Source: Escherichia coli (GTDB lineage Bacteria > Pseudomonadota > Gammaproteobacteria > Enterobacterales > Enterobacteriaceae). From it: DNA of 64,000 nucleotides. The DNA is taken from assembly GCF_003334785.1 (NCBI RefSeq), contig NZ_QOWV01000007.1; one strand, written 5' to 3'. Numbering within the stretch: position 1 is the stretch's first letter; each line of letters begins with the position of its first letter. Below the pieces are notes generated by a model. It was not told where the DNA came from and searched no databases. It was given only the letters and a program-made list of their open reading frames with translations. Below, piece by piece: positions 50,345 through 50,480 of the stretch. The translations under genes were made by a program, and so were the position numbers.

Positions 50345-50480
50345 CATGGTTTGTCGGATGCGGCGTGAACGCCTTATCCGACCTACGATTCGGGGCCGTT
50401 TGTAGGCCCGATAAGACGCGCCAGCGTCGCATCGGGCATCCGTTGTCGCGTAAACGCTTTATCCGTCCAGGCGTACAGGG
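50345..50480. repeat. REP (BIME-type) palindromic element cluster
   Basis: GGATGCGGCGTGAACGCCTTATCCGACCTAC, GTAGGCCCGATAAGACGCGCCAGCGTCGCATC and a third degenerate unit between convergent hemL and fhuB. Confidence 0.85.

What the first reader, a model, noticed from the sequence alone, without database searches (positions are those of the whole stretch)
50345..50480. REP/BIME cluster between convergent hemL and fhuB
A second multi-unit REP cluster fills the gap after hemL and before the end of the fhu operon. It likely serves as the 3' boundary for both transcripts.
Basis: partly seen in the sequence, partly recalled or inferred. Interest (0 to 1): 0.2.

Follow-up and report, generated by a model that had tools for sequence, protein, structure and literature searches.

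The report
Known REP cluster replacing hemL terminator
The gap between the converging hemL and fhuB genes holds an ordinary, already catalogued E. coli K-12 REP/BIME repeat cluster that most likely caps the hemL mRNA rather than terminating transcription; the one mildly interesting point is that it is a strain-specific allele sitting where most E. coli have a classical terminator hairpin.

Summary
The 157-bp hemL/fhuB gap (50340-50496), identical to E. coli K-12 MG1655, holds three units:
- an intact Y-type REP (50352-50386, +);
- after a 15-nt linker, an intact Z2-type REP (50402-50438, -);
- a decayed Y-like remnant (about 50439-50478).
This is a BIME-2-type cluster.

The "3' boundary for both transcripts" reading is only partly supported.
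- The cluster contains no intrinsic terminator.
- Published bicyclomycin (Rho inhibitor) data place the best-scoring Rho-dependent termination position on the hemL strand about 430 nt beyond it, inside antisense fhuB. The measurement used 800-nt windows.
- One curated Term-seq list has no 3' end in the cluster.
- However, a published RNA-seq-defined 76-nt RNA (AC0173) ends 6 nt after the first REP.
The best model is Rho termination downstream followed by exonuclease trimming back to the REP hairpin. REP1 starts 13 nt after the hemL stop, so it also meets the "under 16 nt" rule for damping translation.

New context: only 1701 of 5426 complete E. coli genomes carry this allele. The rest have a 34-bp gap with a hairpin plus U-tract terminator, which is orthologous to the one in Citrobacter and therefore ancestral.

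The element is already known and of low interest.

The parts
49059..50339 (+). hemL CDS (glutamate-1-semialdehyde 2,1-aminomutase); stop codon TGA at 50337-50339
   Evidence: ORF list; RefSeq annotation of identical sequence
50340..50352 (+). 13-nt spacer between the hemL stop codon and the first paired base of REP1 (50353). This is under the 16-nt limit reported for REP-mediated damping of translation.
   Evidence: Sequence, fold; rule as quoted in PMC12306157
50352..50386 (+). REP1, Y-type, intact. Imperfect palindrome with an internal mismatch and a CTAC tail at 50383-50386. The lower stem carries a compensatory C-G to T-A change relative to the Y REP at 7853-7887.
50387..50401 (.). 15-nt tail-to-tail short linker (S-type) between REP1 and REP2; 5 of its positions differ in the variant haplotype
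   Evidence: the module 50349-50438 matches other E. coli loci at 85-91% identity
50402..50438 (-). REP2, Z2-type, intact, inverted relative to REP1. GTAG lies at 50402-50405 as read on the + strand. The core GATGCGACGCTGGCGCGTCTTATC is identical to the Z2 REP at 7812-7835.
50439..50478 (+). REP3, a decayed Y-like remnant. The loop and 3' arm are recognisable; the 5' arm is degenerate; there are 5 extra bases before the TAC tail; it forms no canonical hairpin. Six substitutions separate the two haplotypes here.
50479..50485 (+). Remnant of a second S-like linker (GGGCCGTT), the end of the 47-nt direct repeat 50439-50485 of 50354-50400
50476..50508 (.). 11-bp-arm inverted repeat (CAGGGCCGTTA / TAACGGCTCTG) that spans the fhuB stop codon. 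It has no U-tract and may be a chance match.
50497..52479 (-). fhuB CDS (ferric hydroxamate ABC transporter permease), last gene of fhuACDB
50317..50392 (+). Published putative 76-nt 3'UTR RNA AC0173 (K-12 173,549-173,624, minus strand). It comprises the last 23 nt of hemL including the stop codon, the spacer, the REP1 hairpin and a 10-nt tail.
   Evidence: PMC12306157 Table S1; coordinate mapping and fold
50540..50739 (+). C-rich, G-poor tract on the hemL-sense strand (antisense to fhuB), with C/G up to 1.95. It is a plausible Rho-utilisation region. The published best-scoring position of the Rho termination region maps to ~50925.
   Evidence: Adams et al. 2021 supp. file 2

Best explanation
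This is a BIME-2-type cluster of E. coli repetitive extragenic palindromes, ordered Y REP, short linker, inverted Z2 REP, decayed Y REP. It occupies the whole hemL/fhuB convergent gap in K-12-type strains.

It is not an intrinsic terminator. RNA polymerase transcribing hemL most likely reads through it and is released by Rho a few hundred nucleotides further on, in the C-rich antisense-fhuB RNA. 3'-to-5' exonucleases then trim the tail back to the REP1 hairpin, which becomes the stable 3' end of hemL mRNA and of a ~76-nt decay fragment. Because REP1 begins 13 nt after the hemL stop codon, it may also impede terminating ribosomes and lower HemL output.

What is shown: the identity and anatomy of the repeats; the absence of a terminator motif; Rho-dependent read-through downstream; an RNA ending just after REP1; conservation of the stems; and the alternative terminator allele in other strains.

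What is inferred: exonuclease trimming to REP1, the translational effect, and any role for the fhuB transcript.
For: Identity:
- REP core hits, 5 observed against 0 expected.
- Hairpin energies with z about -5.
- Alignment to the Y and Z2 REPs elsewhere in the window.
- The Y-S-Z2 module recurs at other loci at 85-91% identity, with a median of 9 places per genome.
- The definition of BIME-2 is taken from PMC3333891.

Not a terminator: 0 terminator-like sites in 49900-50900. The alternative 34-bp allele scores as a 10-bp, 8-GC stem followed by TTTTATT on the hemL strand.

Rho termination downstream: K-12 173016 (-), with read counts of 226 upstream and 19 downstream without bicyclomycin, and 216 and 157 with it. 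Rho score 8.65, p 1.7e-22. A C-rich tract lies at 50540-50739.

RNA 3' end after REP1: AC0173.

General model: Rho termination downstream followed by trimming to REP or other stem-loops, from Dar & Sorek 2018, PMC6061677.

Constraint on the stems: between two BIME haplotypes whose flanks differ by dS 0.06-0.14, 0 of 48 stem positions changed against 14 of 109 loop, linker and REP3 positions (Fisher p 0.006).

Spacing rule: REPs under 16 nt from a stop codon lower translation (Liang et al. 2015, as quoted in PMC12306157).
Against: - The curated Term-seq 3'-end list of Adams et al. has no entry inside the cluster. This may reflect low hemL expression or loss of reads that map to repeated sequence.
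- AC0173's boundaries come from RNA-seq coverage, not from 3'-end mapping, and I saw no Northern validation for it.
- The Rho score uses 800-nt windows, so termination within or right at the cluster cannot be excluded.
- Stem conservation rests on only two haplotypes. It could equally reflect gene conversion from other REP copies rather than selection at this locus.
- Two thirds of E. coli genomes lack the cluster, so it is dispensable.
Confidence: 0.6

Rival explanations
1. The cluster is itself a two-way transcription stop. RNA polymerase from hemL and from fhuB pauses at the REP hairpins and is released there, by Rho-dependent BIME attenuation of the kind described by Espeli, Moulin and Boccard (2001).
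For: - BIMEs are reported to act as transcription terminators or attenuators (introductions of PMC3333891 and PMC6061677).
- Rho-dependent read-through is detected on both strands near the gap: K-12 173376 (+) and 173016 (-).
- The cluster sits where other strains have a terminator.
Against: - There is no U-tract after any hairpin.
- The best Rho position on the hemL strand is about 430 nt beyond the cluster.
- No curated Term-seq end lies in the cluster.
- The fhuB-proximal unit is decayed and does not fold.
Confidence: 0.2
2. The relevant function is at the DNA level. As a BIME-2 it binds DNA gyrase and acts as a topological insulator, relieving the positive supercoils that build up between the convergent hemL and fhuACDB units. 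The effects on RNA are incidental.
For: - BIME-2 repeats are in vivo gyrase cleavage sites, and BIMEs insulate against transcription-induced positive supercoiling (references 5 and 9 cited in PMC3333891).
- The location between convergent genes is the one where positive supercoils accumulate.
- The Y/Z2 composition matches BIME-2.
Against: - Nothing here tests gyrase binding.
- The cluster has only one complete Y/Z2 pair.
- Most E. coli, and Citrobacter, manage the same convergent gap with a 34-36-bp hairpin and no BIME.
Confidence: 0.15
3. It is a functionally neutral passenger: repeated DNA spread by the REP-associated Y1 transposase or by recombination. It happened to overwrite the hemL terminator and persists because Rho and the hairpins give adequate 3'-end formation.
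For: - It is present in only 1701 of 5426 genomes.
- REP3 is decaying, and linkers and loops diverge at about the synonymous rate.
- About a third of outgroup species (17 of 51, a few of them doubtful calls) carry their own GTAG-tagged palindromes in the same gap, and others carry unrelated palindromic repeats. The gap therefore looks like a permissive landing site.
- BIME copy number is known to vary among strains (PMC3333891).
Against: - There are zero changes in 48 stem positions against 14 in 109 other positions (p 0.006).
- A discrete RNA ends at REP1.
- The allele has persisted for as long as the two haplotypes have been diverging.
Confidence: 0.25

Closest known systems
BIME-2 (bacterial interspersed mosaic element, family 2) of E. 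coli
   Same: A Y REP and a Z2 REP in inverted orientation, separated by a short (15-nt) tail-to-tail linker. [quoted passage not shown] The whole Y-S-Z2 module recurs elsewhere in the genome at 85-91% identity, and it is polymorphic among strains.
   Different: There is only one complete pair plus a decayed third REP, rather than a long tandem array. Gyrase binding was not tested.
REP mRNA stabilisers (the malE-malF and hisJ-hisQ type), and REP or stem-loop-protected ends of Rho-terminated transcripts (Dar & Sorek 2018)
   Same: A stable hairpin without a U-tract just downstream of a gene. Rho-dependent read-through lies beyond it, and a short RNA species ends just 3' of the hairpin.
   Different: Protection from exonucleases has not been shown at this locus. 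Here the REP lies after a monocistronic gene, not between cistrons.
REPs within 15 nt of a stop codon that stall ribosomes and lower translation (Liang, Rudd and Deutscher 2015; the nrdAB example)
   Same: A 13-nt spacer separates the hemL stop codon from the base of the REP1 stem.
   Different: The effect on HemL has not been tested. For fhuB the nearest unit is decayed and starts 18 nt from the stop codon.
naRNA4 / REP325 (Rfam RF02564)
   Same: It is built from the same REP hairpins. The best match scores 46.6 bits (E 7.8e-07).
   Different: The score is below the family's gathering threshold (59.5 bits), the locus is different, and there is no evidence of a nucleoid-associated RNA here.
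Intrinsic (Rho-independent) terminator, as found in the alternative 34-bp allele
   Same: It occupies the same position, immediately after hemL, and is a GC-rich hairpin.
   Different: The K-12 cluster has no U-tract. The 34-bp allele has a 10-bp stem followed by UUUUAUU, on the hemL strand only.

Membership tests
E. coli REP (palindromic unit) | A 30-40-nt imperfect palindrome with an internal mismatch in the stem | tested here: met
   REP1 and REP2 fold at -19.2 and -23.4 kcal/mol, each with an internal bulge or mismatch. REP3 fails this test (z -0.6).
E. coli REP (palindromic unit) | A conserved GTAG/CTAC tetranucleotide at the foot of the palindrome | tested here: met
   CTAC lies at 50383-50386 (REP1) and GTAG at 50402-50405 (REP2). 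REP3 has GTAC, preceded by a 5-nt insertion.
E. coli REP (palindromic unit) | High-copy, interspersed and extragenic | tested here: met
   There are 5 core-pattern hits in the window against 0 expected. At megablast stringency there is a median of 9 places per E. coli genome. The cluster lies entirely between the two stop codons.
BIME-2 | Composed of Y and Z2 REPs in alternating orientation | tested here: met
   In the alignment, REP1 groups with the Y REP at 7853-7887, and REP2 shares a core identical to the Z2 REP at 7812-7835. The definition is from PMC3333891.
BIME-2 | A short S linker between the REP tails, rather than the long L linker | tested here: met
   The linker is 15 nt (50387-50401). 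The module including the linker matches other loci at 85-91% identity.
BIME-2 | Occurs as multiple tandem copies | tested here: inconclusive
   There is one complete pair, plus a decayed third REP with a remnant of a second S linker.
BIME-2 | Bound and cleaved by DNA gyrase in vivo | not testable with these tools
   This needs Topo-seq or cleavage mapping.
BIME-1 / RIP (IHF-binding BIME) | Z1 plus Y REPs with a long L linker that carries an IHF site | tested here: not met
   The linker is 15 nt, and there is no WATCAANNNNTTR match in the gap.
Intrinsic terminator | A GC-rich hairpin immediately followed by a U-tract | tested here: not met
   There are 0 sites in 49900-50900 on either strand. 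The alternative allele does meet this on the hemL strand.
naRNA4 (Rfam RF02564) | A covariance-model score at or above the gathering threshold of 59.5 bits | tested here: not met
   The best score is 46.6 bits.
Translation-damping REPs (Liang et al. 2015) | REP located fewer than 16 nt downstream of the stop codon | tested here: met
   The spacer is 13 nt for hemL. The functional consequence was not tested.

The most novel reading that the evidence does not exclude
The BIME and the classical hairpin terminator may be two long-lived alternative alleles of the same convergent gap. On this reading, the swap changes hemL 3'-end formation from intrinsic termination to read-through, followed by Rho termination about 430 nt inside antisense fhuB and a REP-capped end. 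In K-12-type strains, transcription of a haem-synthesis gene would then run antisense into the 3' end of an iron-uptake operon, and HemL translation would be damped. That would make this a natural allelic pair for testing what REPs do compared with terminators.
Probability: 0.2. Interest if true: 0.4.

Novelty: already known. Interest (0 to 1): 0.2.

Why it matters
As an element it matters little. It is one of several hundred REP/BIME clusters in the most studied bacterial genome, and its likely roles (mRNA 3'-end protection, possible translational damping, possible gyrase site) are textbook.

The useful by-product is practical. E. coli offers both a BIME allele (1701 genomes) and a terminator allele (roughly 3700 genomes) at the same position with near-identical flanks. 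A simple allele swap could measure, in a native context, how a REP cluster differs from an intrinsic terminator in termination efficiency, antisense read-through, mRNA half-life and protein yield.

Tried and rejected
- Intrinsic-terminator scan of the K-12 gap found nothing.
- The IHF consensus is absent from the gap, so this is not a BIME-1/RIP.
- Rfam gave only sub-threshold naRNA4 matches. The other low-scoring hits (KDPG-aldolase, CRISPR-DR28, c4-a1b1, mcrA; E 2.9-9.3) were dismissed as chance.
- The RefSeq K-12 record lists no repeat feature at this position, so the catalogue name of the REP could not be checked.
- Searches for 3'-end data gave little:
  - Dar & Sorek 2018, Choe et al. 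2022 and Grünberger et al. 2022 have no supplements held as text.
  - The TERMITe and SMRT-Cappable-seq supplements contain no hemL or fhuB entry.
  - The Ton-Hoang supplements are not held.
- The PdhR genomic-SELEX paper mentions the locus only as a motif-less peak inside fhuB, which is irrelevant here.
Citrobacter served instead.
- ORFs that overlap the gap (50227-50553 +, 50244-50432 -, 50459-50602 -) were treated as mechanical artefacts of the ORF list and not pursued.
- The 11-bp inverted repeat across the fhuB stop codon was considered as a fhuB terminator. It was rejected because it has no U-tract, and my rough estimate is about 0.1 such matches expected by chance.

Full report
**What is there.** hemL (49059-50339, +) and fhuB (50497-52479, -) converge on a 157-bp gap. 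The gap and its flanks are identical to E. coli K-12 MG1655 173445-173601; the window is the reverse complement of K-12, and window coordinate = 223941 minus K-12 coordinate.

The REP core pattern GATGCGNCG..CGNCTTATC occurs at 50357-50378 (+) and 50410-50433 (-). There are five such hits in the 64-kb window against none in 100 shuffles.

Alignment with the other REPs of the window identifies the units:
- Unit 1 (50352-50386, +) is a Y-type REP. Its lower stem carries a compensatory C-G to T-A change.
- Unit 2 (50402-50438, -) is a Z2-type REP. Its core is identical to the Z2 REP at 7812-7835.
- Unit 3 (about 50439-50478, +) is a decayed Y-like copy. It keeps the loop and 3' arm, but its 5' arm is degenerate and five extra bases precede the tail.

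Units 1 and 2 fold at -19.2 and -23.4 kcal/mol (z about -5). Unit 3 folds no better than shuffled sequence. A 47-nt direct repeat (50354-50400 versus 50439-50485, 70% identity) shows that unit 3 was once a Y REP plus its linker. Rfam's REP-derived family naRNA4 matches below threshold, at 46.6 bits against the 59.5 required.

**Classification.** In the nomenclature summarised by Ton-Hoang et al. (PMC3333891), a Y and a Z2 REP in inverted orientation separated by a short linker make a BIME-2. The linker here is 15 nt. There is no IHF consensus in the gap, so this is not a BIME-1/RIP. The complete Y-S-Z2 module (50349-50438) matches other chromosomal loci at 85-91% identity, and every E. coli genome has several such places (median 9).

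**Is it the 3' boundary of both transcripts?** The consensus scan finds no hairpin plus U-tract anywhere in 49900-50900 on either strand. Published data give a mixed picture.

Adams et al. 2021 (PMC7815308, supplementary file 2) list two Rho termination regions near the gap. Both were measured with 800-nt windows, so their positions are coarse.
- K-12 173016, minus strand. This is the hemL strand, at window ~50925, about 430 nt beyond the cluster inside antisense fhuB. Read counts were 226 upstream and 19 downstream without bicyclomycin, and 216 and 157 with it. Rho score 8.65, p 1.7e-22.
- K-12 173376, plus strand. This is a weaker region, 68 nt before the fhuB stop codon. Rho score 3.76, p 3.5e-5.

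Their curated Term-seq 3'-end list has no entry at K-12 1734xx-1736xx.

The hemL-sense strand just past the cluster is C-rich and G-poor (50540-50739, C/G up to 1.95), as expected of a Rho loading region.

On the other hand, Table S1 of the RepRanger paper (PMC12306157) lists a putative 76-nt RNA, AC0173, on the minus strand at 173,549-173,624. This maps to window 50317-50392 (+). It begins 23 nt inside hemL and ends 6 nt after the CTAC tail of REP1, with the REP1 hairpin at its 3' end.

Together these data fit the general model of Dar & Sorek 2018 (PMC6061677). In that model Rho terminates downstream, exonucleases trim back, and the REP hairpin defines the steady-state 3' end. For fhuB there is no 3'-end evidence, and the first unit its RNA would meet is the decayed one.

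**Possible translational effect.** The base of the REP1 stem (50353) lies 13 nt after the hemL stop codon. REPs fewer than 16 nt from a stop codon are reported to lower translation of the upstream gene (Liang et al. 2015, as quoted in PMC12306157). hemL meets the spacing criterion. The effect itself is untested.

**Comparative context.** Only 1701 of 5426 complete E. coli genomes carry the 157-bp allele. Carriers include K-12 and BL21(DE3). Nearly all the others have a 34-bp gap, including O157:H7, IAI1, Ecol_656 and CE0026f.

The 34-bp gap reads TGATTTTGCCTCGCCCACCGGGCGAGGCATTTTA. It forms a 10-bp stem (8 G-C pairs) followed by TTTTATT on the hemL strand. The scan calls this a terminator. On the fhuB strand the hairpin is followed by AAAAUCA. 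The two alleles share no sequence between the stop codons, so this is a replacement and not a simple insertion.

A scan of species-representative genomes showed the following:
- The convergent hemL/fhuB arrangement is conserved across 51 Enterobacterales species.
- Two Citrobacter species have a 36-bp gap whose hairpin uses the same stem (GCCTCGCC...GGCGAGGC). The terminator allele is therefore ancestral and the BIME is derived.
- The same gap has been colonised independently in other genera. About a third of the species (17 of 51, a few of them doubtful calls) carry their own GTAG-tagged palindromes there. Others carry a different CCCTCTCCC/GGGAGAGGG palindromic repeat.

**Age and constraint.** A minority BIME haplotype (strains CH10508 and KN12-1, identical to each other) differs from K-12 at 14 of 157 gap positions. 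Its flanks differ from K-12 by dS 0.063 (hemL) and 0.142 (fhuB).
- All 14 changes lie in the loops, the linker or REP3. None lies in the 48 stem positions of REP1 and REP2 (Fisher p 0.006).
- Divergence at non-stem positions (0.128) is about the same as the synonymous divergence of the flanks.

The BIME allele is therefore old, and its two intact hairpins are preserved, either by selection or by conversion from other REP copies. The third unit drifts freely. This comparison rests on only two haplotypes.

**Verdict.** This is a real, correctly located and already known kind of element in the reference strain. The most likely mechanism is a REP cap on a Rho-terminated hemL transcript. Possible side roles are translational damping and gyrase binding. 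It is not a two-way terminator. The replacement of an ancestral terminator by the BIME in about a third of E. coli genomes is a tidy natural experiment, but it lies within the known polymorphism of BIMEs (PMC3333891). Interest is low.

Noticed in passing
window 7804-7887 and 10270-10305: Another BIME lies at 7804-7887: a Z2 REP at 7804-7839 (-) joined head-to-head, through a 13-nt linker, to a Y REP at 7853-7887 (+). A solitary REP-like palindrome lies near 10277-10301. These are the other REP core hits in the window.
   Followed up: partly
window 50476-50508: An inverted repeat with 11-nt arms (10 of 11 complementary) spans the fhuB stop codon. One arm is the remnant S-like linker of the BIME and the other is the last codons of fhuB. 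It has no U-tract and may be a chance match.
   Followed up: partly
L013, L014, L017, L018, L019, L021, L025, L028, L029 (hemL/fhuB gap, about 3782-3990 in each locus): In Enterobacter, Leclercia, Pseudocitrobacter, Buttiauxella and related genera, the same gap holds a different GC-rich palindromic repeat (CCCTCTCCC-N3-4-GGGAGAGGG, often with GGGGTGAGGG). It is sometimes found alongside REPs and a plain terminator hairpin.
   Followed up: no
window 50340-50343; L007/L009 3782-3785: The four bases after the hemL stop codon (TCCA) are shared by the K-12 BIME allele and the Citrobacter terminator allele, but not by the E. coli 34-bp allele (TGAT). This hints that the BIME allele did not arise from the present-day E. 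coli short allele. Four bases are too few to lean on.
   Followed up: no
window ~50565 (- strand) and ~50809: Published features lie inside the 3' part of fhuB. One is a weak Rho-dependent region at K-12 173376 (+). The other is a PdhR genomic-SELEX peak at K-12 173132 with no recognisable PdhR box (PMC7815308, PMC7660256).
   Followed up: no
E. coli genome hits H52/H122 (NZ_CP074792.1, 154,743-bp record, 125268-125299) and H82 (NZ_CP158147.1): REP1-like sequence also occurs on a few plasmids (about 20 places). One of these hits is a perfect 32-nt match in a 154,743-bp record, presumably a plasmid. Separately, about 10 genomes, such as strain FDN-24, match neither gap allele over most of its length, which suggests rare third alleles or insertions.
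   Followed up: no
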